DNA of 32,000 bases from Microcystis aeruginosa NIES-843 (GTDB lineage: Bacteria > Cyanobacteriota > Cyanobacteriia > Cyanobacteriales > Microcystaceae), in the NCBI RefSeq assembly GCF_000010625.1, contig NC_010296.1, positions 5,520,001 through 5,552,000 of the forward strand. The letters run 5' to 3'. A program made the position numbers and the translations under genes. Below, piece after piece: positions 965 through 28,884 of the stretch. The notes below the pieces were generated by a model. The model saw nothing but the letters and a program-made list of their open reading frames with translations, was not told the origin of the DNA and did no database searches. Numbering within the stretch: the stretch's first letter is position 1; each line of letters opens with the position of its first letter.

Positions 965-2566
965 TTATTCTTCCTCCTCATCGGTTGTAGGGAATTTCAT
1001 ACTGGCCCAAGTTAACTGTTTTTGCGGGTCTTTTTCCGGTTCACTAAAACTCTCCTTGAGTTGTTCTTTCACCTGAGCAATATTGCCACTTTGAGCGGCA
1101 TTCTTTAGATCATAGACATAACGAGCATTTTCGATCGCTTCCTCTTTACTACGAGAACTAGACTCAAAGCATTTTTCTAGGTCTTTGTAAATACCCTTGC
1201 GAGAGATTTTTAGAAAATATTGACGTTCTGTATCGATCAGTTTAGCCAATAATTCTAGGTGCATGGAATCCTCGGCACAGATATCCGCGAGGATATCCCA
1301 TTCTTCACTCCCCAAAAGATTATTATCCGCTCCCGGTCGCGGGTCTTGAAAAGTTTCTCCAGTCACTTGTTTATAAATCTTCGGTAATTGGTCATCAAAT
1401 TCGTGCTTTTCTTCCCTCCAAATCCGGCGAATTTCGCTGAGTTCCTCCGTGGTAATTAGGGTAATATCTTTCATCTCCTCTGGGGCATTAGTACGCACGC
1501 TCTCCTGAGCTTCTAATACCCTTCTCAGCCAATATTCTCGCCATTGTTTAGTATAAGGACCGGGTATGGGTTCGATCGATATTTCTCCATTTAAGTTTCT
1601 TTCAAATAATTGTACTTTCCCAAAGATACGGCGAAAATCCCGTTTTGGTCGGTCATCTTCTATATCTAATTCGTTGCGAAGGTCTAAAAGCGGTTGTAAC
1701 CATTCTTTTTCTTGGTCATTCTGTATCATTGCCTCCATCGATTTATCTTTATTCACCAAAGTACAAACCCAACAACCAAAGCGCGAATCTCCACAGCTAG
1801 GAGTGGAAGTATCTACCACTAGGGGACATTCATTATCCGCAGTCGCTCCTCGATACATTGCTAATAATTCTTTGTTATCTCCTCCCCAGGGATTTTCCCA
1901 CTGCATTAAGTACATCCATACTTCATCAGTACGCCAATCTTCTATGGGAGTATAAACAAGTGAATTAATCAAGTGAGTATGAGGGCTAAGACGCTCCCTT
2001 AATCTCCCTACTTTATGTCTTTCTATGGTTACTGATCGTGCGGAGCTTTCCGTTTTTCGCGCACCTAAAATAACTATTGCCTCACCATTTTCTCTAACAA
2101 CATCTCGAATAAAATAATTAACAGGTTGTATTTTCATCCGTTCAGTACACCAGCGAAATCCTCGTCGTGGTGCGGGATAGCCCTTCCCAATCAAACAAAC
2201 CCAGAAAGTTTCCTTAACAGAAGGATTGATCTGATAAGGTTTAATAGGTATTTGATGATCTTTCGCCGATATTTCCAATTTTTTTATACATTTGTTAACC
2301 CAAGTAGATACAAGAGGATTTTCAACTTGAGTATCTGTTGTAATAACATAAATTGTTTTATGTCTTTTTTCTTCTGGCAAACTAGCGATCGCATTCCAAA
2401 CCAATTGTAAAACTGCTGTGCTATCTTTTCCCCAAGATACACCTATGATCCAGGGAATACTGTCTAGACAATATAACTCTTGTATTTCTTGAGTAATACT
2501 TTTTATATCTTCTACGAACTCCTCTATAGCACGATTAGGAAAAATAGAAGTTGTTTTTTCAAGCAT
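965..2566 (-). CDS. dndC: DNA phosphorothioation sulfurtransferase DndC (PAPS-reductase / PP-loop ATP pyrophosphatase fold)
   Basis: 533 aa with an ATG start. It has a PP-loop-like VSWGKDSTAVLQLVW, then FWVCLIGKGYPAPRRGFRWCTERMKI, ILGARKTESSAR, and the cysteine cluster CPLVVDTSTPSCGDSRFGCWVCTLVNKDKSMEAM. A long helical C-terminal region follows (GPYTKQWREYWLRRVLEAQ...ELSEIRRIW). Length and motif order match my memory of DndC. Confidence 0.88.
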   Translation of the reverse strand: MLEKTTSIFPNRAIEEFVEDIKSITQEIQELYCLDSIPWIIGVSWGKDSTAVLQLVWNAIASLPEEKRHKTIYVITTDTQVENPLVSTWVNKCIKKLEISAKDHQIPIKPYQINPSVKETFWVCLIGKGYPAPRRGFRWCTERMKIQPVNYFIRDVVRENGEAIVILGARKTESSARSVTIERHKVGRLRERLSPHTHLINSLVYTPIEDWRTDEVWMYLMQWENPWGGDNKELLAMYRGATADNECPLVVDTSTPSCGDSRFGCWVCTLVNKDKSMEAMIQNDQEKEWLQPLLDLRNELDIEDDRPKRDFRRIFGKVQLFERNLNGEISIEPIPGPYTKQWREYWLRRVLEAQESVRTNAPEEMKDITLITTEELSEIRRIWREEKHEFDDQLPKIYKQVTGETFQDPRPGADNNLLGSEEWDILADICAEDSMHLELLAKLIDTERQYFLKISRKGIYKDLEKCFESSSRSKEEAIENARYVYDLKNAAQSGNIAQVKEQLKESFSEPEKDPQKQLTWASMKFPTTDEEEE

Positions 2567-2589
2567 AATGTTATCAACAAAAAGATCAA

Positions 2590-3549
2590 CTAATTTCTAA
2601 AAATATTCTGACGATGCCATTGGATAGCTTCAAGTTTTGGATAGTGATTTTCTAGAGTGGGTAATAAAATATTCATACCATGAAAGTCTTTAATGGCTTT
2701 AGCATTAGGAGAAATTTCTTGAAAGTCTTGACTAATCATAATTTTGTATTGATCGTCAATAGTAAATAGTCCTTGATCAAATGCCCAATGATGATTTTTA
2801 CAAAGAGATAAACCATTGTTTATCTGGTTATCATAGAATCTGGCAAAAGGTTTGATATGTGCGCCATCGACAATACTTTGTGTCAAGGAGTGGATTACTT
2901 TAAGACCACAAAAAGAGCATTGATAATCGTATAAATGGACTACTGACTTGCGAAATAACGCATCTCTAACTATAGACTTTCTAAAATAATATTTTGTCTG
3001 TGTTTCTCCTTCATCTAAAACGCTACGATCTAGTTGAGTGTCATCATCTTGTTGTAAGACTTGATTAATTTCTAAAATATCTTCTAATTGCTTTTGACTA
3101 GAAGAAAACCAAGCTTCTATTAGAGTATCAATTAGCTGTCGTCTAGCTTCTGGTTCCCGTAAAAGTTTATACAATTCCTCATCTAAAATCGCATAATCTA
3201 CATCTGCTCTAATTTTGGGAATAGTTTGAGGACGGCCGCCATCATAGCTATCACTAAACTTTAACTTCCAAAATCCGTCATTTTTTAGATGAAAAAACGG
3301 TAAAGCTAACCCACCTTTGAAGGCATCTGGGTTTAAACGCTTCCAATATTTATCAAAAGTATCGATTAATTCATCAGAAATATAGATTTTATTGTCCTGA
3401 ATTTGAGAATCACTAATTAACTCAATTACTGATAATAATAAGATAGGCTTATAAGGTGCTTCACCACTTTGCTTAGACTTATTGACTTTAATTTTAGAAA
3501 ATAAGTCACAATAATATTTTAAATTGCGTAGGGGAAGACTATCGACCAT
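2590..3549 (-). CDS. HNH endonuclease with an N-terminal ScoMcrA-like (putative phosphorothioate/modified-DNA binding) domain
   Basis: 319 aa with an ATG start. The C-terminal half has YDYQCSFCG...DGAHIKPFARFYDNQINNGLSLCKNHHWAFDQGLF, an HNH_2-type nuclease motif. The N-terminal half has APYKPILLLSVIELI and LPFFHLKNDGFWKL, the motif pair I associate with the sulfur-binding domain of ScoMcrA/SprMcrA-type enzymes. Its stop lies 23 nt upstream of the dndC start on the same strand. The CDS call is firm; the SBD assignment is about 0.55. Confidence 0.8.
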   Translation of the reverse strand: MVDSLPLRNLKYYCDLFSKIKVNKSKQSGEAPYKPILLLSVIELISDSQIQDNKIYISDELIDTFDKYWKRLNPDAFKGGLALPFFHLKNDGFWKLKFSDSYDGGRPQTIPKIRADVDYAILDEELYKLLREPEARRQLIDTLIEAWFSSSQKQLEDILEINQVLQQDDDTQLDRSVLDEGETQTKYYFRKSIVRDALFRKSVVHLYDYQCSFCGLKVIHSLTQSIVDGAHIKPFARFYDNQINNGLSLCKNHHWAFDQGLFTIDDQYKIMISQDFQEISPNAKAIKDFHGMNILLPTLENHYPKLEAIQWHRQNIFRN

Positions 3550-3820: not shown

Positions 3821-4555
3821 TTAAAGAGTAACTCCACCGTCCACGGGTAAAACCACCCCTGTCATATAGGGGTTGATAATCAAACTCAATACTGCTAGGG
3901 CGACTTCTTCGGGTTGCCCTAAATGTTCGACAGGTAGAGCAGAAACCGCCCATTTGCTCAGGTCGGAGCGTTCCGAATCACCTTGACTGGTCCAGATGCT
4001 TGTATCTTCTATTAATCCGGGGGCAACAACGTTAATGCGAATAGGAGCGAGTTCTAGGGCGAGGGCGCGTCCAAATACGGCTACGGCACTATTAGCGGCG
4101 GCTATGACAGAAATTCCGCCCATTTTGGAATATTTGAACATAGTGACGCTGGATGTCAGGGTAATAGAACCGTCCTTGGCCAAAGTTTTCAGGGAGCCAC
4201 GCACTGCTAAAAAGGTTCCCCAGAATTTCTCCATACCTCCCCGGGCCGTTTCTGCGGTCATTTCGGTTAATAAGGCTCGCGGCATATTTCTGTCTCCGAG
4301 AGAGGTGACTACTAAATGGTCAAAGTTGCCAATTTCTGCAAAAAAGGCATTAACAGAATCTTCTTCTAAAAAACTAACAGTTTTGGCTTCAATCTCCCCG
4401 GAAATTAGGGCAACAGCGGCAGCTAATTTCTCTTGAGAAGCATGGGAAAGCACCACTTTTGCCCCCAGGGAGAGCAATTTTTCGGCAATCGCTAGGTCAA
4501 TCCCGGAGCTTGCACCAATAATAACGACTTTTTTACCCGATAAGGAATCAAACAT
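3821..4555 (-). CDS. Short-chain dehydrogenase/reductase family protein, atypical (no canonical YxxxK)
   Basis: Rossmann N-terminus KKVVIIGASSGIDLAIAEKL, then ITLTSSV, NVVAPGLIED and a C-terminal PVDGGVTL. The ATG at 4555 is preceded by GGAGA about 8 nt upstream. The track start at 4570 is a TTG. Confidence 0.8.
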   Translation of the reverse strand: MFDSLSGKKVVIIGASSGIDLAIAEKLLSLGAKVVLSHASQEKLAAAVALISGEIEAKTVSFLEEDSVNAFFAEIGNFDHLVVTSLGDRNMPRALLTEMTAETARGGMEKFWGTFLAVRGSLKTLAKDGSITLTSSVTMFKYSKMGGISVIAAANSAVAVFGRALALELAPIRINVVAPGLIEDTSIWTSQGDSERSDLSKWAVSALPVEHLGQPEEVALAVLSLIINPYMTGVVLPVDGGVTL

Positions 4556-4594
4556 TTTTTTTGTCTCCAAAAATTCAAGAAAAACTTACAACTA

Positions 4595-5395
4595 TTACAG
4601 TATATTGACTGGCTTTTGGGCAGCAACTAACCAATAAGTTATGGCCGAGGAACTTAGCAAATTATCCAGAGGCTTAATGTTTAAATTATAGGTTTCTTCG
4701 TCTAATTTTCCCGATTGCAATTCCTCTGTTAACCAAGACTTAAGATGGCGAAAATGTCTGAACCAGCACTCCTCCGTCACCTCGACAAATTGAACATCTT
4801 TAAACCCTGCCTGTTGATAAAGATTTTGATACTCTGCCCTATCTTTGACCGTGTTTGCTTGGGGAACTGTCCAATCACCTAAAAGTTCTGTTGTGGCAAA
4901 ACTCAGATCTGAGAGAATTAAGGTTCCCCCCGGCTTTAATACTCGCCAAGCTTCTTGCAAGAATTGCCGCCTGGTATTAAAATAAAAAGCCGCTTCTACA
5001 CAAATAATTTGCTCAAAAGAATGATCGGCAAAATCCATCTCTACTGCGTCCATTAACAGAAATTTACCCTCGGGAAAATTCAAGAGACTTCTGGCAATTT
5101 GTGTCGGAGAAATGTTAATCCCCACAATTGCTGTCAATGGATAATATTTGAGAAGATAATGGGTAGTTGCTCCCAAACCACAGCCAACATCAAGAATTGT
5201 TCCCTGTTTGTTGGGAATAAATTCTAAAAGTTTCTCCATCAGAGTAGAGGATGCTTCCTGTTGATCTTGGGTATGGGAGAGCCAATAACCGACATTAAAA
5301 AACTCTCTTTCACCATAAAACTCTCGAATCGAAGGACTACAAATTAAATCATCGAATCTACTAATCCATTCATTTTTATCCATTGTTAAACTCAC
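4595..5395 (-). CDS. Class I SAM-dependent methyltransferase (Methyltransf_11-like)
   Basis: Motif I is GTILDVGCGLGATTHYL, and the motif II/III region is VLKPGGTLILSD. The track start at 5395 is a GTG; an in-frame ATG at 5383 (MDKNEW...) is an alternative start. Confidence 0.85.
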   Translation of the reverse strand: MSLTMDKNEWISRFDDLICSPSIREFYGEREFFNVGYWLSHTQDQQEASSTLMEKLLEFIPNKQGTILDVGCGLGATTHYLLKYYPLTAIVGINISPTQIARSLLNFPEGKFLLMDAVEMDFADHSFEQIICVEAAFYFNTRRQFLQEAWRVLKPGGTLILSDLSFATTELLGDWTVPQANTVKDRAEYQNLYQQAGFKDVQFVEVTEECWFRHFRHLKSWLTEELQSGKLDEETYNLNIKPLDNLLSSSAITYWLVAAQKPVNIL

Positions 5396-5793
5396 TTAAC
5401 TGTTTCGGCAAAAACTACATTAGTTTAACACGATTGGGCTTAGTAGAGCGGGAAGTGGGAAGTGGGTTATAGCAATGCTTGCCAAACTCTTGTTAAGGCA
5501 CTAGATATTGACCGCGTGGCTGAGGCGATATAAAAAAAGGAGCCACACCTTTTCCCTTAGATACCGATAAATTTCCCTTAGAGGTTCAACTAACAGCCCA
5601 ATTTAATGGTAAAAAAAGTTTTTATCAATTAACCTATAACCATCAATCTATATTATCATATCTGGTGAGGGACAGAAGTTATCGCTTTTGAATTAGGAAT
5701 GGGGAGCGGAGAACAGGGAAGAAAATTGGCGTACCTGATGACCCTGAATAAAGCTATAAGTGTCACCCATGGGAGTGCGGGTAAGGTGAGTAT

Positions 5794-5822
5794 TTGACTT
5801 GAGTAAGACGGCAATATATGTT
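5794..5822 (+). promoter_or_regulatory. Candidate sigma70-type promoter for the microviridin-like precursor
   Basis: TTGACT (5794..5799), a 17-nt spacer, then TATGTT (5817..5822). This lies about 60 nt upstream of the ATG at 5883. Sequence match only. Confidence 0.25.
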
Positions 5823-5882
5823 ACTATCACAAGGTAATCGCAGCTATCTTGAAAAAGCTGCTACTCAAAACTAGGAATGACC

Positions 5883-6041
5883 ATGAATTATCCCAATACC
5901 GAACAAAGTAAAGCAATCCCCTTCTTTGCTCGTTTTTTATCTGTGGACCAAGACGAGGCTCCGACTCCCGATTCCCCCCCCGATTCTGAACCGGCTCCCG
6001 TTTGGACTTGGAAATGGCCTTCTGACTGGGAAGATAGTTAA
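5883..6041 (+). CDS. mdnA: Microviridin-type RiPP precursor peptide (MdnA/MvdE family)
   Basis: 52-codon ORF below the track size cutoff: MNYPNTEQSKAIPFFARFLSVDQDEAPTPDSPPDSEPAPVWTWKWPSDWEDS. It has the PFFARFL leader recognition motif and the TxKxPSDxE(D/E) core motif of microviridins. AGGA lies 6 nt before the ATG, and a hairpin terminator lies 45 nt downstream. An in-frame ATG at 5877 is an alternative start. Confidence 0.85.
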   Translation: MNYPNTEQSKAIPFFARFLSVDQDEAPTPDSPPDSEPAPVWTWKWPSDWEDS

Positions 6042-6085
6042 TTAATTTAAAGATTGCTTTCAGTGATTCACACAGAAAACAACCA

Positions 6086-6130
6086 CCGCCATAAGTCAAG
6101 CAGGAGTAAGATTTATGGCGGTTTTTTGTT
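6086..6130 (+). terminator. Rho-independent terminator after the precursor gene, possibly bidirectional
   Basis: CCGCCATAA (6086..6094), an 18-nt loop, TTATGGCGG (6113..6121), then TTTTTTGTTG. On the minus strand the same hairpin is followed by TTGTTTTCTGTG. It sits downstream of the convergent 6214..6693 gene. Confidence 0.55.
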
Positions 6131-6213
6131 GTATTTAGGGTTTGCTGAAAAAGTCAATTTGCCGGTGAGGGCAGCAGGAGAGAGGAGGGAGAAAGTGCTT
6201 AGTCAAGTTAAAA

Positions 6214-6693
6214 CTACTCTTCAGCAATTTCGACTTCTTTGGGAGCAATGGGTTCTTCGGCAGCAATTTCTACTTCAATAGCCTTTTTAAGGTTAAGTTT
6301 TAGAACTTGAGAAATTGGCAAACCTTCCACCTCATTGATGAGATATTCTTGAGTTTCTGTTTCACGACGTTTGAGATAGACCGTTTTAAGCAGTGCCTCA
6401 ATGCCATAACCCGTAACAATGTCACCAATAATGGTAGAGATGCCTAAGACCCCAAGTCCACCAATTAGTCCCAGCGGACCGCCTAACCCAAAAAGTGCGT
6501 AAATCGCAGGATAGGCAGTACCACCGGATGCGGCAACAGCAATAATGAAAATAATGCCGGGGAGTCCCAGAGAAGCAAGTTTTTGAACAACTTCATCCAG
6601 AGAAATTCCCCAGGAGACAAGTTTTTTGTTGATGTCTGTGGGATTAATTCCGAGAAAATCATGGGGAATGGCCGTTTCAGTAGTTTCCGTCAT
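6214..6693 (-). CDS. Hypothetical small membrane protein (two glycine-zipper-like hydrophobic segments, acidic repeat tail)
   Basis: Hydrophobic and Gly-rich stretches are LGLPGIIFIIAVAASGGTAYPAIYALFGLGGPLGLIGGLGVLGISTIIGDIV. The tail is EVEIAAEEPIAPKEVEIAEE. I prefer the ATG at 6693 (MTETTE...), preceded by AGGAG 8 nt upstream. The track start at 6768 is a TTG, and another ATG lies at 6747. I recognise no family. Confidence 0.6.
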   Translation of the reverse strand: MTETTETAIPHDFLGINPTDINKKLVSWGISLDEVVQKLASLGLPGIIFIIAVAASGGTAYPAIYALFGLGGPLGLIGGLGVLGISTIIGDIVTGYGIEALLKTVYLKRRETETQEYLINEVEGLPISQVLKLNLKKAIEVEIAAEEPIAPKEVEIAEE

Positions 6694-6970
6694 TGATGAG
6701 ACTCCTAAAATCACTAAGTTGGATTGGTTGGTCGGGATTTCACTCATATAAAATCCATGGTAAGGCAAAAGAATACAAATCGGCTGTCTAGCAATCAGAT
6801 GCCTTGCAGCATTTTACATTAGTCTTACCGTTCACACAACTTGTAGAAAATCGTCAGTTCTTAGATTAAATCCTGTTTAAAAGATAGATGAGATTGGGGA
6901 GAAACAATTGATAACTGGGTTTTTCAAGTTGAATTGGGAGTTAATCATAGTCTTAAAAACGGGTTTGGTA

Positions 6971-9900
6971 TCAAATCTCAAGGCAAACTTTTAACTCTTC
7001 GGCTAAAATCTGGACATGGGGTTCCACCATAATCGAGACATGATTTCCTAGGACGAAATGAATCTCAACTGGCTCTGTAGAAAATTCACTCCAGCCTAAA
7101 GAGGAATCCTCGCAATCTCCAGCTATTAAATCTTTATTTGGATCATCAGCTAATTCCTCCCTGGCCCGTATAATCGTAATTTTACCAGGATAAATCTGTT
7201 TAGGGAGATAATCAATCAGACATAGACAGCTAGTTTTATAGGCTTGGACAATTTTTTCAAGCTGCCTAGTTTCCGCATTGGGAGGAAGCATATTAGCCAG
7301 TTTAAAAAAGTTTAAGGCGTATTTTAATTGTTCCTCCACTGTTAAGAGTTGAAGAGTTTCATAGGAAATATCGATGGTTTTATCTAAATAAACTTCGATA
7401 CCTTTGCTGACTTCAGCTAACCATCGCGCATGATCCCAATTAATATAATCAAGCAAAATTTGTTTGTCTTTATAAGTGGGTGCTGAAGAATCAATGATTG
7501 CTAGTAATGCCACTTGTTGACCCTGATTAACCAACTGTTGAGCCATTTCAAAAGCCACATTACCACCGTAGGAATGTCCTCCCAAAAAGTAGGGGCCTTG
7601 GGGTTGTAAATCTTGCATTGCTTGAAGATAAATACTGGCTATATCCTCAATGCGAGTGATTTCTCCAAACTGTTGATAGAGATCATTTTCAAAACTGTAG
7701 AAAGGTTGATCTTTTCCTAAACAACGTCCTAAATGGTAAAAATAAAATGGTCGTCCCCCGGCGCCTGGAACACAGAAGAAAGGAGGCTTTGAACCCTGGG
7801 GTTGAATGGGAACCAAACAAGACTGGTTAGAGGAATCTGCATCGGTTTGGATAATGGTCGCTAACTGTTCAATAGTTGGGTTTTGAAATATTGTAGTTAC
7901 GGCAATTTCTTTGCCTAACTGTTCTTTAATTTGGGTGATTAAATAAGGAGCTAAAAGGGAATGACCACCGAGGTCAAAAAAGTTATCATGCACGCTAATT
8001 TTGTCAATCTTTAGCACTTTTGACCAGATTTGCACGAGGTTTAATTCTAACTGATTACGCGCTTCAATAAATCTGTCTGAATCACTGGTGTTACTGGGAG
8101 CTTTTAACGCACGGCGATCAATTTTTCCGTTAGCTGTTAAAGGGAAAAACTCCAGCAGCACAAAAGCACCAGGAACCATATAACCGGGCAATTTATGGCT
8201 AAGAAATTGACGCAAATCGCCACTTGTTAGCTTTACTCCTAGCTTAGGTACAATATAGGCAACTAACTGTTTTTCCCCTGGATTGTCTTCACGAACAATC
8301 ACACAGGAAGACTGTACCGCCTGATTTTGACTAAGTACAGCCTCAATTTCTCCCAATTCAATACGGAAGCCGCGAATTTTTACTTGATTGTCAATCCGTC
8401 CTACATATTCAATATTACCATCGGGTAAATAACGGGCCAAGTCTCCCGTTTTATATAATTTTGACGGCTCATTGCCCCCCTTATTAAGGGGGGTTGGGGG
8501 GATCACTTCATCCTTCTCAAAAGGATTAGGAATAAATTTTTCTTGGGTTAATTCGGGACGGTTAAGATAACCTTTGGCTAATCCCATACCACCAATATGT
8601 AATTCTCCTACTACACCAATCGGGACAGGTTGGAGATTTTTATCCAGCAAATAGATTTGGGTATTGGCAATCGCTTTACCAATGGGAATAGTTGTGGCTG
8701 TAGAAGCTATGTTTTCCACTAAATACCAGGAAGAAAACGTTGTATTTTCCGTTGGCCCATAGACATGAAGCAACCGTTGTGGCGCACCTTTTTCTAGTAC
8801 CTCTTGTACCCATTTTGGTTCAACTGCTTCACCCCCAAATAGTAAGCATCGTAAGCTACTAAAAGCTTGCGGAACTAAATTGGCTAACTGATTAAAAAGT
8901 GCTGTGGTTAAAAATAAGACACTAATCTGATTTTCCTTTAAGCTTAGTGCCAATTCTTGGGGTGAGAGCAAAACTGATTTAGCGATAATAACAATCTTAG
9001 CACCGTTAAGTAAAGCCCCCCAAATTTCAAAAGTAGCGGCATCAAAAGCAATATTAGACGCTTGCACAACCCGGTCATCAGGAGTAAACTGGATGTAATT
9101 AGTATTTAATACCAGTCGATTAACTGCTTGATGAGTGACGATAACACCCTTGGGTATTCCTGTAGAACCAGAAGTATAAATAACGTAGGCTAAATTATCC
9201 GCAGAAACTGTGCTGTTCAGATTCTCCAGACTTGCTTGATTAATTTGTTGCCAATCTTTATCTAGACAGATAACAATAGCCTGATGATTTGGCAAGGAAT
9301 TCTGTAAAGATTCGCAGGTTAATATTATTTTAACCTGGGTATCTTGGAGCATAAAGCTAATGCGTTCTTGGGGATAATCTGGGTCAATAGGAACATAAGC
9401 TCCACCGACTTTAAGAATAGCCAATAATCCCACAATCATGTCTAAGGAACGCTCTAGACAAATCCCCACTAATTCATCTGGTTTTACTCCTAATTTTTGC
9501 AGGTAATGAGCTAATTGATTGGCTCGACAATTTAATTCATTGTAGGTTAATTGTTGCTCTGAACATACCACTGCTACCGCGTCGGGTGTGCGTTTTACCT
9601 GTTCTTCAAATAATTGATGAATACATTGATCAGAGGGATAATCTGTGTGAGTTTCGTTCCACAATGATAACAATTGATAACGTTCTTCATCACTTAACAT
9701 CGATAACTGAAAAATTCCCATATTGGGATTAGCTGCAATCGCAGTTAAGAGATTCTGAAAATGTTGCCACATTTGGTTAATAGTGGGGGCAGCAAACAAA
9801 TCCGTACTATAACACCAAACCGCTTCTAAACGATCAGAAACTTCCCAAAAATTTACCTCTAAATCAAATCGCGCTTTAAGCTCAACAGATAAAGGCAAAC

Positions 9901-11227
9901 TCTCCATCTTTAAGCCAGATAAACTGGCCTCAGATTGGGGAGTATTTTGCAGAGAAAACATCACCTGTATCAAAGGATTGTGACTTAAATCTCGGTTTAA
10001 TTGTAATTTTTCTACTAACATTTCAAAAGGCAAATCTTGATGAGCATAAGCTGATAAAGTTGTTTGCTTTACTCGTTGTAATAACTCCAGAAAACTCGGA
10101 TTTCCCGACATATCACCCCTTAAAGCCAAAGTATTGGCAAAAAAGCCCATTAATTTCTCAATTGCCGAACTATTACGATTAGCTATCGGAGAACCCACCA
10201 AAACATCTAATTGACCACTATAACGAGAAATTAGGACAAAAAAAGCCGCCAGTAAAGTCATAAATAGCGTTGCTCCTGACTCCTGACTTAACCTTTTGAG
10301 GCGTTGCGTTAAGTCTTGATTCAGTCGAAAAACCTGCCCATCACCCCGGAAACTAGGAATTGGAGGACGGGGATAATCCGTTGGCAATTCTAAAATAGTA
10401 GGTGCATCTTGTAACTGTTTTTGCCAGTAATTAAGTTGACGCTCCAAAACTTCACCGGTGAGCCATTGACGTTGCCATACGGCAAAATCGGCGTATTGAA
10501 TCGATAATTTAGCGAGAGGGGAAGGCAAACCCTGGACAAAGGCCGCATAAAGTTGAGATAATTCACCAAAGAAGATGCTCAAAGACCAACCATCGTAAAT
10601 AATATGGTGCATCTTCAACAGCAATACATACTCTTGGGAACTGAGTTTAAGTAACTTAAATTGGACTAATGATTCCTTGGCTAGATTAAAGGGTTTTAAG
10701 GAGAAAGCAATCGCTATTTCTTGCAGATGTTCTGTTTGTTCATTCTTTGATAAATTTTGTAAATCTTCCAGGGGTAAACTGACGGGTGAAGGGGGAGCAA
10801 TGCGCTGAATTGGTTGCCCTTCTACCATGGTAAAAGTGGTTCTTAAAATTTCGTGACGGCGAATCAGTTCGCTGAGACTTTGTTCTAAAGCCAACAGATT
10901 GAGGTTTCCTTCTAACCGCAAAGCGTCCAACAGATTATAGGAATGACTATCGGGAGAAAGTTGCTGCAGAAACCAGAGTCGTTGTTGAGCAAAAGAGAGG
11001 GGTAAATCCTGATCCCGTGACACGGGAATAATCTCTAAATCAACAGTATTAGTTGGGATTTTTGCCGCTCTCAAAAAGTCCAAAATTTCAGGTTTTTTGG
11101 CGGCGATTTCTTCTTTAATTTCTGGGGTCATAACCCCTTTGGGAGCCTGAAAACGAAGTTTTTCGCCTTCCAGCCATAGTTTAATCTCTAAACCCTTCAA
11201 ATACGCTAAAAAATCTCCTACTTTCAC
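6971..11227 (-). CDS. NRPS termination module (module 7): docking-C-A-T-TE, Ile/Val-like
   Basis: 1418 aa. The GTG start is preceded by GGGAGG. C domain: LSFAQQRLWFL, MHHIIYDGWS. A domain: LAYVIYTSGSTGIPKG, GELHIGGMGLAKGYL, YKTGDLARY, GRIDNQVKIRGFRIELGEIE, NGKIDRRAL. T domain: FFDLGGHSLL. TE domain: GGHSYGG. Hand-derived specificity signature is DAFFLGVTFK (Ile/Val type). Confidence 0.95.
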   Translation of the reverse strand: MKVGDFLAYLKGLEIKLWLEGEKLRFQAPKGVMTPEIKEEIAAKKPEILDFLRAAKIPTNTVDLEIIPVSRDQDLPLSFAQQRLWFLQQLSPDSHSYNLLDALRLEGNLNLLALEQSLSELIRRHEILRTTFTMVEGQPIQRIAPPSPVSLPLEDLQNLSKNEQTEHLQEIAIAFSLKPFNLAKESLVQFKLLKLSSQEYVLLLKMHHIIYDGWSLSIFFGELSQLYAAFVQGLPSPLAKLSIQYADFAVWQRQWLTGEVLERQLNYWQKQLQDAPTILELPTDYPRPPIPSFRGDGQVFRLNQDLTQRLKRLSQESGATLFMTLLAAFFVLISRYSGQLDVLVGSPIANRNSSAIEKLMGFFANTLALRGDMSGNPSFLELLQRVKQTTLSAYAHQDLPFEMLVEKLQLNRDLSHNPLIQVMFSLQNTPQSEASLSGLKMESLPLSVELKARFDLEVNFWEVSDRLEAVWCYSTDLFAAPTINQMWQHFQNLLTAIAANPNMGIFQLSMLSDEERYQLLSLWNETHTDYPSDQCIHQLFEEQVKRTPDAVAVVCSEQQLTYNELNCRANQLAHYLQKLGVKPDELVGICLERSLDMIVGLLAILKVGGAYVPIDPDYPQERISFMLQDTQVKIILTCESLQNSLPNHQAIVICLDKDWQQINQASLENLNSTVSADNLAYVIYTSGSTGIPKGVIVTHQAVNRLVLNTNYIQFTPDDRVVQASNIAFDAATFEIWGALLNGAKIVIIAKSVLLSPQELALSLKENQISVLFLTTALFNQLANLVPQAFSSLRCLLFGGEAVEPKWVQEVLEKGAPQRLLHVYGPTENTTFSSWYLVENIASTATTIPIGKAIANTQIYLLDKNLQPVPIGVVGELHIGGMGLAKGYLNRPELTQEKFIPNPFEKDEVIPPTPLNKGGNEPSKLYKTGDLARYLPDGNIEYVGRIDNQVKIRGFRIELGEIEAVLSQNQAVQSSCVIVREDNPGEKQLVAYIVPKLGVKLTSGDLRQFLSHKLPGYMVPGAFVLLEFFPLTANGKIDRRALKAPSNTSDSDRFIEARNQLELNLVQIWSKVLKIDKISVHDNFFDLGGHSLLAPYLITQIKEQLGKEIAVTTIFQNPTIEQLATIIQTDADSSNQSCLVPIQPQGSKPPFFCVPGAGGRPFYFYHLGRCLGKDQPFYSFENDLYQQFGEITRIEDIASIYLQAMQDLQPQGPYFLGGHSYGGNVAFEMAQQLVNQGQQVALLAIIDSSAPTYKDKQILLDYINWDHARWLAEVSKGIEVYLDKTIDISYETLQLLTVEEQLKYALNFFKLANMLPPNAETRQLEKIVQAYKTSCLCLIDYLPKQIYPGKITIIRAREELADDPNKDLIAGDCEDSSLGWSEFSTEPVEIHFVLGNHVSIMVEPHVQILAEELKVCLEI
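6974..7816 (-). other. Thioesterase (TE) domain of the termination module
   Basis: The last 281 aa begin LVPIQPQGSKPPFFCVPGAGG. The GxSxG nucleophile motif is GGHSYGG, with the Ser codon at 7573..7571. The fold pattern looks alpha/beta-hydrolase-like. Confidence 0.85.
8443..8523 (-). repeat. 81-nt in-frame palindrome-bearing block, copy in module 7 (encodes ...FEKDEVIPPTPLNKGGNEPSKLYKTGD)
   Basis: ctcccgttttatataattttgacggctcattgCCCCCCttattaaGGGGGGttggggggatcacttcatccttctcaaaag. The palindrome is at 8475..8493. Confidence 0.9.
11063..11227 (-). other. TubC-type N-terminal NRPS docking domain
   Basis: MKVGDFLAYLKGLEIKLWLEGEKLRFQAPKGVMTPEIKEEIAAKKPEILDFL matches the remembered TubC_N pattern (hLWxEGxxLRxxAPKGxhTPEh...K.ehL). 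The upstream protein ends in an acidic tail, ESLEDYEDGEL. Confidence 0.7.
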
Positions 11228-11393
11228 TTACCAATTGCCTCCCAAAGTTGTTGTTAAATTAGCTCTAAATCACGAAGTTTGCCCTGAGGATGTAAAAGTA
11301 CATCAGATTGCCATTGACTAGGATCAATATTTGTCCTTTGCCGTTTTAACTGTCTTGCTAAACTATTGATATCAGCTAAAACTTTAACTGTTT

Positions 11394-14300
11394 TTATAAT
11401 TCACCATCCTCATAATCTTCCAAGCTTTCAGTCATAGCTGTTTGTCCCGGTGCAACGGTAAGAACTTCAATGATTTGGGCTAAATTAGCGATAGTTGGGT
11501 ATTCCAGCAGATTTTGTAAAGACAATTCCACCGAGAAAAGATCGCGGGAACGGGAAATAACCTGAGTCGCTAACAAAGAATGTCCTCCCAATTCAAAGAA
11601 ATTATCCTTAATTCCAATACGTTCGACCCCCAAAACTTCACTCCAAATTTGAGACATTTGAGTTTCAATCGGGGTACGAGGTGCGAGAAATCCCGTAGCT
11701 AAATTGCGTGTAGCTGTATCGGGTGTAGGCAAAGCCTGCCGATCTACTTTACCATTAGGAGTCAAAGGTAGGGTATTAAGCAAAACAAAAGCCTGGGGAA
11801 CCATATAACTAGGTAGCTTTTGTTGGACAAATTCCCGCACCTGTGGTATCAGCTTCTGGACTAATTTACCATATAAAGGATTATTCGTATAATCAGTCCA
11901 GGATTTGGGAATAATCGTCTCATCATCCCAAAAATTGGGGTATGGTTGTTGATCAACTTTACTTATTATCGGTTCTAAGATGGCATTCTGGCGACAGAAA
12001 ACCACATCGAAAGAACCATCTTGACTACCTTCCCACCAACTGAGATGAACAGTGTAACCTAACTGTTCTCCCAGTTGCCACATTTGCTCAGGATTAATCC
12101 CTATACCGCTATTTTTTGCTAACAATTGCCGCAATTCTCCCACCGTTGTTACCCCGGGAGAATTTTCTAAACAGTCTAAAATTTGTAGTGCCTTTTGTAA
12201 TCGTTGATTGGGTACATCTCTGATGCCTAAATATTCTGGTTGTTCCAGTTTTAGTTTATCTTGTAGTTGCCCTAAAGAAAACCGATCCCGCTGCCAATTT
12301 AGCCAAGGAATTGTCGTTTTTTGCCCATTAGTATCCAGATGTAAAGTAACATCATAGCGGAATTGGGTTAACTCATTGTCAGCCTGACCCCGTTTCGGGG
12401 CAATTTCTACCCAAGAAATTCGCGGAAAGCGTTGTTTAAGCGCAATAAAGAACTGAGGTGCAATTAACAATTCTTCTTCGGTAGCTACACTTTGATTCAC
12501 CTGTTTTTGCCATTCTTCAAGGGTTTTATTAGCTTCAGCACGAGCTAACTGTACCGCGGCATGGTAAGGCTCTAGTAAGGACAAACTACGGATATCACCT
12601 AGGAAAATCTTACCCTGATCCGCAATCGCCTTGACTGCTCCTGCGATAACTTGTAATAGATAATCGACACTAGGGAAATACTGAACCACAGAGTTAATTA
12701 CTACTCGATCAAAAGTAGCTTGGGGAATGCCGGTAAAATCATCGGCTGTTCGGTGTAATAATCTTACTTTGCCCTCTAAACCCTCAATTGTGCTACATAA
12801 ATGTTCGAGGTTATTAATAGTAGCAGCGGAATAATCGGCTCCCCAATATTCCTGACAATGTTTCGCCACACGGAATAGCAATAATCCACTTCCGCAACCA
12901 ATTTCTAACACTCGTTGCGGTGGTTGATTTCCTAAAATTCGGCTCACTGTCTGATCAACCCATTCCTGCATTTCTGCTGCGGGAATAGCTTGTCGCGTAT
13001 AACTACTATTCCAACCACTAATATTAAAAGTGGGGTCATCGGTTTGAGGTTGGGGTTTACTGTAGGATTCTTCGTAAATCTTTTGCCAATCACTAACATA
13101 TTCACTCTGCCATTGAGCAAGCTGTTCGGGCAATACTTGACCCTTGAGAGCCGGAACTAAGTAGGCTACCAAATTAGTATTAAGCTGATCATGATCATGA
13201 TCACTTGCCTGATCAGCGCGAGCCATCACAACCGCTTCTTGTACTAGGGGATGTTGGCTCAAAACTGCTTCAATTTCCCCTAATTCAAGGCGGAAACCCC
13301 TTACTTTAACCTGATTGTCAATTCGTCCCAGATATTCAATTTTTCCATCAGGTAAATAACGAGCTAAATCTCCCGTTTTGTATAATTTTGACGGCTGCTC
13401 TCCCCCCTTATCAAGGGGGGTTAGGGGGGGATCAAGGGAGACAAACGGGTTAGAGATAAATTTCTCTGCTGTCAATTCTGGGCGATTCAAATAACCTCTG
13501 GCTACCCCTGCTCCTCCGATATGTAATTCCCCGGGTACACCGATAGGAACCGGTTGTAAATGGGAGTCTAAAATATAAACCTGCACATGAGGAATTGGCC
13601 GACCAATAGTTATTTTTGTGTCAAAAGGCGTACATTTAGCTACCGTTGCACAAACACTTCCTTCGGTGGGTCCATAACCATTAAAGAAATTTCGTCCCTG
13701 GGACCATTTTTTCACCAATTCAGGAGAACAAGCTTCCCCGGCGACAATAATAGTTTGCAGAGAGGAAAGATTTTCCCAAGACAGAACCGCTAAAGCTGAT
13801 GGCGGTAGAGTAATATGAGTAATCTTATTCTCCCGTAATTGCTTGATTAAGGGTAAACCGGGCATTAAATTTTCTTTACTTGCCAAATAAAGTGTCGCTC
13901 CCGCTCCCAAAGCCATTAAAACTTCTGAAATACAGGCATCAAAACTAAAAGAAGCAAATTGAAGCACTCGACTCTGAGAAGACACAGCAAAAGTCTGAAT
14001 TTGCGCCAGAGCTAAGTTACATAACCCTTGATGTTCAACCATCACCCCTTTAGGTTTACCCGTAGAACCAGAAGTATAAATCACATTAGCTAAATTAGAA
14101 GCTGTTACCTTCCCCGTCAAATTATCCCAGTTCATTGGTTTAATTTCTTGCCAAATTTCAGCTAAAAAGATGGTTTGGCCTCGATGATTTGGGAGTTTAT
14201 CAATCAGTGAACTTTGGGTTAGTAATAAGGGTACTTGACTATCCTCTAACATCAATTGTAGGCGTTCTTGAGGATATTCCGGGTCAAGGGGTAGATAGGC

Positions 14301-17300
14301 AGCACCGGCTTTAAGGATGCCTATTAATGCCACAATCATGTCTAAAGAGCGCTCTACACACAAACCGACTATTACCTCGGTTTCTAAGCCTAAAGAGCGT
14401 AAATAGTGAGCTAGTTGATTGGCCTGACTATTTAATTCTGCATAGGTCAACTGTTGATTTTCAAAGACTACTGCTACTGCATCAGGGGTACGCGCTGCTT
14501 GTTCCTCAATTAATTGATGAATACACTTGTTATAGGAGTAATCAGCTTTTGTCTCATTCCAACCCTCTAATAGTTGATACTCTTCCTCTGGGTTTAATAA
14601 GGGTAGTGAAGCTACTGATTGACGGGGATTTTCCACAATTGCCGCCAACAAAGTCTTAAAATGAGTCATCATACGGACAATGGTTTCAGCATCAAATAAA
14701 TCCCTGTTATAAGAGCAAAAACCGCCCAATCCTTCGGCTGCATCCCAGAGGTAAACTTCTAAGTCAACCCTAACTGAATCAAGTCCCGATGGTATCTCCT
14801 CAATGTTTACTCCGGGTAAATCCCAGGGAGAACTAGGAGCATTCTGAAGGGCAAAAACTATCTGTGTTAAAGGATTACGATCTAAATGACGCTCAATTTG
14901 TAATTTTTCGACTAACATCTCGAAGGGTAAATCTTGATGGTCGTAAGCGTCTTGAGTAGTTTGTCTGACCTGCGCAAGAAAATCCTCAAAGGTCGGGTCT
15001 TGAGATAAATCAAATCTTAACACTAAACTATTGACAAAAAAGCCGATTAACCCTTCAATTTCGGTGCGGTTACGGTTAGCAATTGGTGAACCAATTACCA
15101 CATCTGTTTGTTGACTATAACGAGATAGTAACACAGCAAAACCCGCTAGTAATGTCATAAAGAGAGTGCTACCGGACTCTTGACTAAGTTTTTTCAGTTG
15201 TTGCGTTAGTTGACTATCTAGTTGCAGTCGCTCCGTCCCTCCGCGAAAACTTTGGATTGCTGGCCGGGGACGGTCTGTGGGAAGTTGGTGTAGTAGGGGA
15301 ACCCCGGTTAATTGTTGCTTCCAGTAGCTTAATTGACGGTCTAATACTTCATTAGTTAACCACTGACGCTGCCACAGGGCAAAGTCAGCATACTGTATCG
15401 ATAAAGTAGGTAAATCTGCTTTTGTCCCGGTGCAGAAACTTCGATAATAGACTGATAATTCGTCGATTAAAACACCTAATGACCAACCATCTGCCGCAAT
15501 ATGGTGAATGGCTAATAATAGTACATATTCCTCTGTCTTGACTTGCCATAATTTGACTCGTAATACTGAACCTGATTCGAGATCAAAGGGTTCGGATGCT
15601 GCTGCTAATAACAGGTTTTTTACCTGTTGCTCAGAATGACTGAGGTTTTGCAGATTGACAACTGGTAAGGTGAAAGTTACATTAGGATCGATCGCTTGTA
15701 TTGGTTGGTTATCTTTGAGTTTAAATTGAGTCCGTAGGGGTTCATGGCGTTGAATAATTGCCTGGAAAGCTTTTTCTAAGGCTTTAACATTGAGATTTCC
15801 CTGCAAACGCATCGTTAAATCAATAGTATAAGCCCCACTTTCTCCTTCTAATTGATTCACAAACCAGAGACGTTCCTGGGCCCAGGATAGGGGAATATCA
15901 TCCTCCCGATTAACGGGGACAATTGATGGTAGCTTTAACCCTAAACCTGTTTGCAGTTCTTTTAAAATTACCGCACTTAACTGAGCAATGGTTGGAGATT
16001 CAAACAGATAACGCAAGGGAACAACAATCTCAAAGGTTTCCTGTAATCGAGAAATAACTTGAGTTGCCAACAGAGAATGTCCACCTAATTCAAAGAAATT
16101 ATCCTCAATACTGACTCGTTTTAATTTCAGTACGTCACCCCAAATCTGCGCCATTTTTTCTTCAATGGGGTTACGGGGAGCTATATATTCACCTTGGCTC
16201 TGTAAATCGGGAACGGGTAAAGCGCGGCGGTCTATTTTGCCATTGGGAGTTAAGGGGAAAGCATCAAGACGAATAAACGCAGTAGGAACCATATAGTCGG
16301 GTAATTTTGCTCGCAAAAATTGCCGTATTTCGTTAATTGTCAGGTTGATTTCGGGTTGCGGTACAACGTAAGCAACTAAGCGTTTATCCCCTAGATTATC
16401 TTCACGAACAATCACACAAGAAGACTGTACCGCCTCATTTTGGTTGAGTAACGATTCAATTTCTCCTAATTCAATACGGAAGCCGCGAAGTTTTACTTGA
16501 TTGTCAATGCGTCCTAAATATTCGATTTTACCATCGGGTAAATAACGGGCTAAGTCTCCCGTTTTATATAATTTTGACGGCTCATTGCCCCCCTTATTAA
16601 GGGGGGTTGGGGGGATCACTTCATCCTTCTCAAAAGGATTAGGAATAAATTTTTCTTGGGTTAATTCGGGACGATTGAGATAACCCCGCGCTAATCCCAT
16701 ACCACCAATATGTAATTCTCCCGGAACACCAATCGGGACAGGTTGTAAATGGGAGTCTAAGATATAAATTTGGGTGTTAGCAATGGGGCGACCAATAGTT
16801 ACTTTCAGGGTTTCATCTGTCCATTTTTCTACCGTGGCACAAACGCTGGTTTCTGTCGGTCCATAAGCATTAAAGAAATTTCTCCCTCTAGCCCATTGTT
16901 TGATCAATTCTTCTGAACAAGCTTCTCCCCCTACAATAATAGTTTGTAACTCTGGGATTTCTTCTAGGGGCAAAGCCGCTAAGGCTGAGGGGGGTAAAGT
17001 AACATGAGTAATACCATAATCTTTTAATCGCCCCATTAATGGCAACCCAGGCATTAAAGCGTCTTTTGTGTCTAAATAAAGGGTTGCACCCGATCCTATG
17101 GCCATGATAATTTCCCAGATAGAAGCATCAAAATTGAGGGAAGCAAACTGGAGAAGGCGAGAGTTTGACTGTAAGTTAAAGGTTTTAATTTGCGCTGTAG
17201 CTAGGTTAAATAGTCCCCGATGTTCCACCATTACCCCTTTAGGTTTTCCGGTAGAACCAGAGGTATAAATGAGATTAGCTAAATTATTGGCTGTTACTAC

Positions 17301-28882: not shown

Positions 28883-28884
28883 CG

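What the first reader, a model, noticed from the sequence alone, without database searches (positions are those of the whole stretch)
5883..6041. Unannotated orphan microviridin-type precursor with a Trp-rich core
A 52-codon plus-strand ORF missed by the six-frame track encodes MNYPNTEQSKAIPFFARFLSVDQDEAPTPDSPPDSEPAPVWTWKWPSDWEDS. The PFFARFL leader box and the T-x-K-x-P-S-D-x-E-D core are the hallmarks of microviridins, which are tricyclic depsipeptide protease inhibitors made by MdnB/MdnC ATP-grasp ligases. The Thr, Ser, Lys, Asp and Glu/Asp positions needed for two lactones and one lactam are all present. No ATP-grasp ligase, GNAT or ABC transporter lies within at least 5.8 kb on the left or 26 kb on the right. 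The precursor would therefore have to be processed in trans, or it is a relic. The core is unusual: KWP instead of the common KYP, four Trp residues, and a C-terminal Ser rather than an aromatic residue. It has its own RBS, a candidate promoter and a good terminator, which argues for expression.
Basis: partly seen in the sequence, partly recalled or inferred. Interest (0 to 1): 0.75.

Follow-up and report, generated by a model that had tools for sequence, protein, structure and literature searches.

The report
Stranded second microviridin precursor gene
This is a real, well-conserved Microcystis gene for a tryptophan-rich microviridin (protease-inhibitor) precursor that was left on its own when the neighbouring maturation-enzyme genes were deleted; the family is known and the gene is already auto-annotated in public genomes, but I found no report of its product.

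Summary
The 52-codon ORF at 5883..6041(+) is exactly as described. It passes the curated cut-offs of Pfam Inhibitor_I10 and NCBIfam microvirid_RiPP. The window is from Microcystis. The identical peptide occurs in hundreds of public contigs, and NCBI already names it a microviridin/marinostatin-family inhibitor.

It is an orphan because of a deletion. A 145-bp frameshifted fragment of the mdnB (MvdC-family) ligase gene lies at 5507..5651, 232 bp upstream. Other strains have MTase-GNAT-mdnA-mdnB-mdnC-this peptide-orf159 at the same position. Woronichinia and two metagenomic lineages show the same layout, so this is a conserved KWP-type terminal precursor. In two clusters it is the only precursor.

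Between genera it has omega about 0.10, with no amino-acid change in the core. That matches the ligases.

Nearly identical ligases sit at a second, ftsW-adjacent locus, 3.3 Mb away in M. viridis NIES-102 and 0.45 Mb away in FD4. Some of those loci lack their own mdnA, so maturation in trans is plausible. It cannot be shown for this strain from 32 kb.

Verdict: a new member of a known kind, of moderate interest.

The parts
5883..6041 (+). Class I microviridin precursor ORF, KWP-type 'second/terminal' precursor (52 aa plus stop)
   Evidence: Translation. Pfam PF12559 and NCBIfam NF033738 above their cut-offs. Identical peptide in 244 collection blocks. Omega 0.10 against Woronichinia.
5919..5939 (+). 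PFFARFL leader box, the ligase recognition and activation motif
   Evidence: Motif scan. Invariant in all variants seen. Role of the motif as stated in PMC13039773.
6006..6038 (+). Core TWKWPSDWEDS, with Thr, Ser, Lys, Asp, Glu and Asp available for two lactones and one lactam
   Evidence: Sequence. Invariant in the 15 intact Microcystis variants listed; P0006 alone has D->N. 4 synonymous and 0 nonsynonymous differences against Woronichinia.
5873..5876 (+). Ribosome-binding site AGGA, 6 nt upstream of the ATG at 5883
   Evidence: Sequence. Conserved in Microcystis and Woronichinia.
5794..5822 (+). Candidate sigma-70-type promoter TTGACT-17-TATGTT (unproven)
   Evidence: 9 of 12 matches; number of sites not above shuffles. 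Conserved in all Microcystis alleles, and the CVNH-allele breakpoint lies just upstream of it.
6085..6132 (.). Intrinsic terminator: 13-bp-stem hairpin 6085..6122 plus a T-run. An A-run on its 5' side makes it a likely bidirectional terminator shared with the convergent orf159
   Evidence: Fold dG -27.5, z = -5.6. Compensatory change in Woronichinia. A minus-strand terminator-like site is called at 6103..6086.
5507..5651 (+). Pseudogene fragment of mdnB (MvdC-family ATP-grasp lactam ligase, residues 20-68), with a 1-bp deletion giving a frameshift and stops
   Evidence: 96.6% nt identity to L001 7740..7885. tblastn E=5e-20. Same end-points in all 14 scar alleles.
5651..5652 (.). Deletion junction: mdnB codon 68 joined to sequence that lies about 30 bp downstream of the mdnC stop in full-cluster strains
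   Evidence: Alignment A1 and junction sequences.
6214..6693 (-). orf159 (alternative start at 6768): conserved membrane-like protein of unknown function, always convergent to the KWP-type precursor
   Evidence: No Pfam or NCBIfam hit. Found next to the precursor in Microcystis, Woronichinia, L111 and L112/113. Omega 0.11.
4595..5395 (-). SAM methyltransferase gene, the left boundary of the variable mdn slot (context, not part of the system)
   Evidence: Pfam. Conserved left flank in all alleles.
6971..11227 (-). C-A-T-TE terminal module of a heptamodular cyanopeptolin/micropeptin-type NRPS, the right-hand neighbour (context)
   Evidence: Pfam. An mcnD-like halogenase sits in the homologous cluster of L100. 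A micropeptin BGC is reported for NIES-2481 and NIES-102, which carry this locus.

Best explanation
**Shown.** The ORF is a genuine class I microviridin precursor gene of a conserved KWP-type subtype. It is the last gene of an ancestral cluster: (ABC)-GNAT-mdnA-mdnB-mdnC-KWP precursor, followed by the convergent orf159. In this strain's lineage one old deletion removed GNAT, mdnA, most of mdnB and all of mdnC. It left a 145-bp mdnB fragment. The precursor survived with its own RBS, upstream region and terminator.

**Inferred.** The peptide is still made. It is matured wherever the genome keeps MdnC (lactone) and MdnB (lactam) ligases at the second, ftsW-adjacent mdn locus. Those enzymes bind the PFFARFL box. 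They would form the T-D and S-E esters and the K-D amide in ...TWKWPSDWEDS, giving a Trp-rich tricyclic microviridin after leader removal.

As an extrapolation from other microviridins, Trp at the specificity position between Thr and Lys predicts a chymotrypsin-type target.

My estimates: stranded by deletion, about 0.9. Matured in trans in this particular strain, about 0.55.
For: **Family membership:**

**Deletion scar:**. All 14 scar alleles have identical end-points, so this was a single event.

**Full cluster at the same slot:** L001, L020, L100, L101.

**Same architecture elsewhere:** Woronichinia and two further lineages.

**The KWP peptide is the only precursor next to intact ligases:** in BLCC-F210 (L023) and in L112/113. 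So the ligases must accept it.

**Purifying selection:**
- Omega is 0.10 between genera, with the core at 0 nonsynonymous and 4 synonymous changes. Compare MdnB 0.13, MdnC 0.10 and canonical mdnA 0.41.
- Within Microcystis there are 8 synonymous and 6 nonsynonymous polymorphic sites. None fall in PFFARFL or TWKWPSDWEDS.
- The ORF is 100% identical to L001, whereas the adjacent mdnB fragment has 4 mismatches plus 1 indel in 146 nt.

**Ligases encoded in trans in complete genomes that carry the orphan:**
- NIES-102: ligases at 0.13 Mb, orphan at 3.42 Mb.
- FD4: 3.56 Mb and 4.02 Mb, and its ligase locus has no mdnA.

**Ligase loci without mdnA:** L103-105.

**Enzymes nearly the same at both locus types:** 96-100% identical, and one MdnB protein (P0138) is found at both.

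**Literature:** Humbert 2013 reports 11 of 12 genomes with complete mdnB-E and the precursors mostly outside the cluster. PCC 9701 and PCC 9807 appear both in that table and among the holders of this peptide.

**Expression signals:**
Against: - The rest of this strain's genome is not visible, so ligases in trans are not shown here.
- In the one complete scar-type genome caught by the genome scan (M. ichthyoblabe FBCC-A1114), only the scar was returned and no intact mdnB.
- Some strains carry decayed copies: a frameshift in M. panniformis FACHB-1757 (P0010), disrupted P0012 and P0013, and D->N in the core of P0006. Selection is therefore not universal.
- No transcript or product data exist here. 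No paper in the searchable library contains the core motif.
- The promoter is only a consensus match.
- Within-Microcystis diversity is too low to prove selection specifically in ligase-less backgrounds.
Confidence: 0.55

Rival explanations
1. Relic. In this strain no microviridin ligases remain anywhere. The ORF is intact only because it is short, the deletion is shared by descent, and recombination with ligase-bearing strains keeps refreshing it. Any peptide made stays linear and is degraded.
For: - Cis ligases are destroyed.
- FBCC-A1114 returned only the scar in the genome scan.
- Decayed alleles exist in other strains.
- The classical locus is itself eroding in some strains: FD4 lacks mdnA and GNAT and has an altered mdnC C-terminus, and PCC 9806 retains only mdnB and mdnD.
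Against: - The scar is old. It is shared by M. viridis, M. aeruginosa group G and M. ichthyoblabe. Yet the ORF keeps an invariant core and leader box, while the adjacent mdnB fragment has picked up substitutions and an indel.
- Most Microcystis genomes retain mdnB-E.
- Orphan and ligases coexist in NIES-102 and FD4.
Confidence: 0.3
2. Ligase-independent module. The KWP peptide and the convergent membrane protein orf159 form a two-gene unit whose function does not require cyclisation. Possible roles are signalling or regulation, or a peptide with its partner, immunity or export protein. That would explain why exactly this pair survives every rearrangement of the slot.
For: - The pair is retained in all four allele types of the slot, in Woronichinia and in two further lineages, sharing one hairpin terminator.
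- Both genes have omega of about 0.1.
- The breakpoints of the scar and of the CVNH allele both stop just upstream of the precursor's upstream region.
Against: - The invariant residues are exactly those needed for ligase recognition and the three cross-links.
- In every non-Microcystis case the pair is attached to intact ligases.
- Nothing is known about orf159.
Confidence: 0.1
3. Chance ORF or the wrong strand. The real feature would be the overlapping 90-codon minus-strand ORF 5827..6099, or a non-coding element.
For: A 90-aa minus-strand ORF overlaps it, and gene callers sometimes call small minus-strand ORFs just upstream.
Against: - HMM matches above curated cut-offs.
- The substitution pattern fits the plus-strand frame, with 0 nonsynonymous and 4 synonymous changes in the core.
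- No Rfam match.
- The minus-strand ORF is not called consistently across loci.
Confidence: 0.01

Closest known systems
MdnA / MvdE class I microviridin precursors (Microcystis mdnA-E and Planktothrix mvdA-F clusters; microviridins A, B, J, K, L)
   Same: - One leader plus one core.
- PFFARFL box.
- Pro-rich end of the leader, as in the Microcystis group.
- T-x-K-x-P-S-D-x-E-[DE]-x core.
- Passes the family HMMs.
- In orthologous loci it lies directly after mdnB-mdnC.
   Different: - Only about 53% identical to the canonical MdnA of the same cluster.
- KWP replaces KYP, it has four Trp, and it ends in Ser or Cys instead of an aromatic residue.
- It is strongly conserved (omega 0.10), whereas canonical mdnA is hypervariable (omega 0.41).
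- It is the 3'-terminal gene, paired with orf159.
- In this window it has lost its cis ligases.
[quoted passage not shown] 2013, PMC3741299)
   Same: Same genus and same phenomenon. The reported lower bound of MdnA identity (>52%) equals the identity of this peptide to canonical MdnA. Accessions from those PCC genomes fall in this peptide's 90% cluster.
   Different: That paper gives one sentence. It does not mention the mdnB scar, the conserved KWP subtype, the orf159 partner or the two-locus architecture. Equating their 'outside' precursors with this gene is my inference.
Trans-encoded RiPP precursors such as prochlorosin ProcA genes scattered away from ProcM (my own knowledge, not checked here)
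   Same: Leader-guided enzymes act on precursors encoded at distant loci. This is a precedent for a split RiPP pathway in cyanobacteria.
   Different: It is a different enzyme class (a lanthionine synthetase, not ATP-grasp ligases) with many diverse precursors. Here there is a single, highly conserved one, and trans processing is not demonstrated.
Microviridins with Glu-Asp at the lactam position (microviridin L ...SDWEDY, table; microviridins E/F ...SDFEDF, from my own knowledge)
   Same: The E-D pair at the end of the core, as in ...SDWEDS, so an Asp at the amide position has natural precedent.
   Different: Those have KYP and an aromatic C-terminus. No described congener that I could find has KWP or a Trp at the position between Thr and Lys.

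Membership tests
Microviridin/marinostatin precursor peptide family (Pfam PF12559 Inhibitor_I10; NCBIfam NF033738) | Score above the curated cut-off of the family models | tested here: met
   36.6 bits against cut-off 21 (Pfam) and 36.5 bits against cut-off 26 (NCBIfam).
Class I microviridin precursor (definition in PMC13039773) | [quoted passage not shown] | tested here: met
   PFFARFL at residues 13-19. Invariant in all homologues. Role of the motif.
Class I microviridin precursor (definition in PMC13039773) | A single core peptide after the leader, with no double-glycine motif. The Microcystis group has a Pro-rich leader C-terminus | tested here: met
   One core only, no GG, and the linker is APTPDSPPDSEPAP. 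Criteria.
Class I microviridin precursor | Core residues for two omega-esters (Thr/Ser to Asp/Glu) and one omega-amide (Lys to Glu/Asp) in the T-x-K-x-P-S-D-x-E-[DE] register | tested here: met
   T42, K44, S47, D48, E50 and D51 are present in register with MdnA of L001.
Complete microviridin biosynthetic gene cluster (mdn/mvd) | MvdD/MdnC and MvdC/MdnB ATP-grasp ligase genes next to the precursor | tested here: not met
   Only a 145-bp frameshifted mdnB fragment remains, and there is no mdnC in the 32 kb. Orthologous loci do meet this feature (L001, L020, L023, L100, L101, L011, L112).
Complete microviridin biosynthetic gene cluster (mdn/mvd) | GNAT N-acetyltransferase and ABC transporter genes (optional accessories) | tested here: not met
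   No hit in the window. They are present at the classical locus of other strains (L102-105).
Microviridin (mature natural product) | Tricyclic depsipeptide (minus 3 H2O) with serine-protease inhibitory activity | not testable with these tools
   This needs LC-MS/MS and enzyme assays. No literature hit for the core.
Expressed gene | Transcript and translation product | not testable with these tools
   Only signals are available: a conserved RBS and terminator, and a promoter consensus match that is not significant.

The most novel reading that the evidence does not exclude
In Microcystis the microviridin pathway is routinely split between two loci, and the highly conserved KWP-type peptide, not the hypervariable canonical MdnA, is the constant substrate. 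In strains whose ftsW-adjacent ligase locus has no mdnA (FD4, the FACHB-1342 type) it would be the only substrate. It would give a widespread, so far unreported Trp-rich microviridin. The invariably linked membrane protein orf159 would be a dedicated partner for export, immunity or processing, which would explain why the peptide-orf159 pair survives every rearrangement of the slot.
Probability: 0.3. Interest if true: 0.6.

Novelty: new member of a known kind. Interest (0 to 1): 0.38.

Why it matters
Microviridins are potent serine-protease inhibitors. They affect grazers of bloom-forming cyanobacteria and are of pharmacological interest.

If the stranded gene is matured in trans, then cluster-based genome mining under-reports the microviridin repertoire of Microcystis. 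Such mining counts only precursors that lie next to ligases. A conserved Trp-rich congener present in a large share of bloom strains would then be missing from toxin and metabolite surveys.

The locus is also a clear natural example of how a RiPP cluster breaks up. There is a datable single deletion scar, alternative alleles at one slot, a second ligase locus with or without its own precursor, and a precursor plus unknown membrane protein that always stay together.

If the gene is only a relic here, the finding is ordinary gene-cluster decay.

Tried and rejected
- **Motif search in the literature.** Full-text searches for 'WKWPSDWE' and 'KWPSDWE' gave 0 papers. A search for mdnA2 or 'second mdnA' returned only noise.
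- **Papers not held.** Gatte-Picchi 2014, Ziemert 2010 and Sieber 2020 could not be read. These are the papers most likely to mention this peptide, so I cannot say whether AHF21217.1 was characterised.
- **Genome scan.** I spent the single genome-collection scan on the mdnB segment that survives in the scar, so that scars and intact genes would both be returned. 'Only a scar in FBCC-A1114' is therefore suggestive, not proof.
- **antiSMASH report.** The statement that NIES-2481 has a 'microviridin' cluster is not usable as evidence for ligases, because the precursor alone might trigger the call.
- **Mass comparison.** I compared predicted masses with listed uncharacterised microviridin masses. 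Nothing matched convincingly, so I make no claim.
- **Promoter scan.** The number of sites is not above shuffles, so I treat the promoter as unproven.
- **Rfam.** A search of 5300..6900 found nothing.
- **Minus-strand ORF.** I rejected the overlapping ORF 5827..6099 on the substitution pattern.
- **Inversion hypothesis.** I considered that the full cluster moved by a simple inversion to give the classical locus. I rejected this because L022 has neither the KWP precursor nor orf159 upstream of mdnA.
- **Upstream polymorphism.** A polymorphism comparison over 230 nt upstream was invalid, because the alleles are not homologous there.

Full report
**1. Observation**

It scores above the curated thresholds of Pfam PF12559 (Inhibitor_I10; 36.6 bits, cut-off 21) and NCBIfam NF033738 (microviridin/marinostatin family tricyclic proteinase inhibitor; 36.5 bits, cut-off 26). 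It is the only PFFARFL / TxKxPSD ORF in any frame of the window.

- An AGGA sits 6 nt before the ATG at 5883. An ATG two codons upstream has no usable spacing, although some pipelines call that 54-aa form.
- A strong hairpin at 6085..6122 followed by a T-run folds at -27.5 kcal/mol, z = -5.6.
- The promoter-like site at 5794..5822 is only a consensus match and is not enriched over shuffles.
- No Rfam family matches the region.

**2. Surroundings and organism**

| Window position | Strand | Feature |
|---|---|---|
| 965..2566 | - | dndC |
| 2590..3549 | - | phosphorothioate-DNA HNH restriction gene |
| 3821..4570 | - | SDR |
| 4595..5395 | - | SAM methyltransferase |
| 5883..6041 | + | the precursor |
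| 6214..6693 | - | convergent 159-aa ORF with no family match (orf159) |
| 6971..31842 | - | heptamodular NRPS ending in C-A-T-TE, with an N-methyltransferase domain |

I read the NRPS as the cyanopeptolin/micropeptin (mcn) type. The homologous cluster in L100 has an mcnD-like halogenase, and strains carrying this locus are reported to have micropeptin clusters.

The exact peptide is on record in 244 blocks of the assembly collection. All of those read are Microcystis. NCBI names it 'microviridin/marinostatin family tricyclic proteinase inhibitor'. A variant that is 96% identical, with the same core, is deposited as 'MdnA [uncultured Microcystis sp.]', AHF21217.1. So the gene is neither unannotated nor rare.

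**3. Why it is an orphan: a deletion scar**

Window 5507..5651 is 96.6% identical to the inside of the first ATP-grasp gene of locus L001. That gene is MvdC-family, the counterpart of MdnB, and the match covers residues 20-68. The fragment carries a 1-bp deletion that breaks the frame (tblastn E = 5e-20).

At 5651/5652 the fragment is joined to the sequence that lies about 30 bp after the stop of the second ligase gene in L001. L001, L020, L100 and L101 carry the following, between the same methyltransferase and the same orf159/NRPS:

- GNAT
- mdnA, whose core in L001 is YGGTFKYPSDWEEY (I recall this as the microviridin A sequence)
- mdnB
- mdnC
- this peptide

All 14 scar-type loci examined have the same remnant end-points. 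They include M. viridis NIES-102, M. aeruginosa NIES-2549 and NIES-2481, and M. ichthyoblabe FBCC-A1114. This was therefore one old deletion that is now widespread.

Other alleles of the slot also exist:

- A CVNH lectin gene in place of the cluster (L003-5, L019).
- An allele with neither remnant nor lectin (L107-109).
- L023 (Microcystis sp. BLCC-F210), which has mdnB and mdnC but no GNAT and no first mdnA. There the Trp-rich peptide is the only precursor.

**4. The peptide is a conserved subtype, not an oddity**

In Woronichinia naegeliana an 87%-identical homologue with an identical core is again the last gene of ABC-GNAT-precursor-ligase-ligase-precursor2, followed by the convergent orf159.

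Two further metagenomic lineages repeat the pattern:

- L112/113 have ABC-ligase-ligase-one precursor (...VWTFKWPSDWEDS)-orf159.
- L111 has six precursors. The one next to orf159 ends ...FTWKWPSDSEDC. The two others I translated end in the canonical KYPSDWE[ED][YF].

KWP and a small C-terminal residue therefore mark a distinct terminal-precursor paralogue.

Nei-Gojobori estimates between Microcystis and Woronichinia:

| Gene | omega |
|---|---|
| KWP-type precursor | 0.10 |
| MdnB | 0.13 |
| MdnC | 0.10 |
| orf159 | 0.11 |
| canonical mdnA | 0.41 |

For the precursor, residues 39-52 show 4 synonymous and 0 nonsynonymous changes. Within Microcystis, ten ORF haplotypes show 8 synonymous and 6 nonsynonymous variable sites. 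None fall in PFFARFL or TWKWPSDWEDS. The RBS is conserved between genera, and the terminator stem keeps pairing through a compensatory change.

**5. Can it be matured in trans?**

A second mdn locus exists downstream of ftsW, as mdnA-mdnB-mdnC with GNAT and ABC on the opposite strand (L021, L022, L102). Its enzymes are 96-100% identical to those of the NRPS-adjacent cluster. One MdnB protein (P0138) occurs at both locus types.

- In the complete genome of M. viridis NIES-102, this locus lies at about 0.13 Mb. The scar plus Trp-rich precursor lies at about 3.42 Mb. That strain is the original microviridin source.
- In FD4 the ligase locus is at 3.56 Mb. It has mdnB, an mdnC with an altered C-terminus, and ABC, but no mdnA and no GNAT. 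The orphan is at 4.02 Mb.
- L103-105 are ligase loci in which a CVNH gene and a DUF2283 gene replace mdnA.

Humbert et al. 2013 reported complete mdnB-E in 11 of 12 Microcystis genomes. They placed the precursor genes 'clearly outside' the cluster in all but two, and gave MdnA identity down to 52%. That is the identity of this peptide to canonical MdnA. PCC 9701 and PCC 9807 from that study hold this peptide.

Since nearly the same enzymes have this peptide as their only cis substrate in L023 and L112, trans maturation is biochemically plausible.

**6. Evidence against**

- The rest of this strain's genome is not visible.
- The only complete scar-type genome returned by the genome scan, FBCC-A1114, gave just the scar.
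- Decayed copies exist: a frameshift in M. panniformis FACHB-1757, disrupted P0012 and P0013, and D->N in the core of P0006.
- No transcript or product data are available.
- The core motif is absent from the searchable literature, and the three most relevant papers are not held.

**7. Mechanism proposed**

*Shown:* family membership, the deletion origin of the orphan state, the conserved terminal-precursor subtype, purifying selection at the family level, and the existence of distant ligase loci in related complete genomes.

*Inferred:* the gene is transcribed from its own upstream region and terminated at the shared hairpin. MdnC and MdnB encoded at the ftsW locus bind the PFFARFL box. They make the T42-D48 and S47-E50 esters and the K44-D51 amide. 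An unlinked protease removes the leader, since class I clusters encode none.

A 14-mer PVWTWKWPSDWEDS would give [M+H]+ 1764.78, or 1806.79 if acetylated. The cleavage site is a guess, made by alignment with 14-residue microviridins.

**8. Comparison, novelty, verdict**

The ORF is a member of the microviridin precursor family, and all sequence-level defining features are met. The window does not contain a microviridin gene cluster: ligases, GNAT and ABC are not met in cis.

The orphan phenomenon was noted in one sentence in 2013. I did not find the scar, the KWP subtype, its strong conservation or the orf159 linkage described anywhere.

I rate it a new member of a known kind, with interest about 0.38. 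It is useful for natural-product mining and as a worked example of RiPP cluster fragmentation, but it would not surprise a specialist.

My estimates are:

| Reading | Probability |
|---|---|
| Stranded by deletion | about 0.9 |
| Matured in trans in this strain | about 0.55 |
| Relic in this strain | about 0.3 |
| Ligase-independent role with orf159 | about 0.1 |

Noticed in passing
window 6214..6693 (-), alternative start at 6768; also L011 10285..10764, L111 7228..7746, L112 42..521: orf159 is a 159-177 aa protein with a Gly-rich hydrophobic middle and no Pfam or NCBIfam match. It is always convergent to the KWP-type precursor in four lineages, with omega 0.11. The family is small (34 clusters), and a paralogue about 55% identical exists elsewhere in Microcystis (P0196). 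It may be an unrecognised accessory gene of this microviridin cluster type.
   Followed up: partly
L003-L005 and L019 (9489..9815); L103-L105 (9303..9629): A 108-aa CVNH lectin gene (microvirin-like) occupies both mdn-related slots. One arrangement is MTase-CVNH-orphan precursor. The other is FtsW-CVNH-DUF2283-mdnB, where it replaces mdnA. This hints at recombination between the two loci.
   Followed up: no
window 965..3549 (-): dndC is followed by a phosphorothioate-DNA-binding HNH restriction endonuclease gene (2590..3549). Most related strains have dndB at that position (L002, L006, L008, L015-18, L106). This is a presence/absence swap inside the dnd region.
   Followed up: no
L023 10915..11547: About 630 bp of tandem repeats (unit about 57 nt) are inserted between mdnB and mdnC in Microcystis sp. 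BLCC-F210. Both ligase ORFs remain intact.
   Followed up: no
window 28885..31842 (-): The most upstream complete NRPS ORF begins inside a condensation domain (profile positions 119-456). The gene is either N-terminally truncated or frameshifted relative to its upstream part.
   Followed up: no
L100 17616..19493; window 11228..11393: Some strains carry an mcnD-like FAD halogenase gene with a TubC_N docking domain between the TE-NRPS and the 4.7k-aa NRPS. The window has only a 166-bp gap there, which predicts a non-halogenated cyanopeptolin/micropeptin.
   Followed up: no
L011 1870..4065, L012 592..2787, L111 4404..6389, L112 5234..7267: A 661-731 aa Laminin_G_3 / T6SS_Tle1-like protein is a recurrent neighbour of the ABC-transporter end of the Woronichinia-type microviridin clusters.
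   Followed up: no
L110 (FD4, CP046973.1 3,558,554..3,571,534): The classical mdn locus is eroding. mdnB is intact. mdnC is open but its last 6 residues are replaced. GNAT and mdnA are absent. The public gene calls list no mdnC there.
   Followed up: partly
L002 9513..9874 relative to window 5755/5756: One scar allele carries an extra insertion of about 360 bp between the mdnB remnant and the precursor's upstream region. It may be a small mobile element.
   Followed up: no
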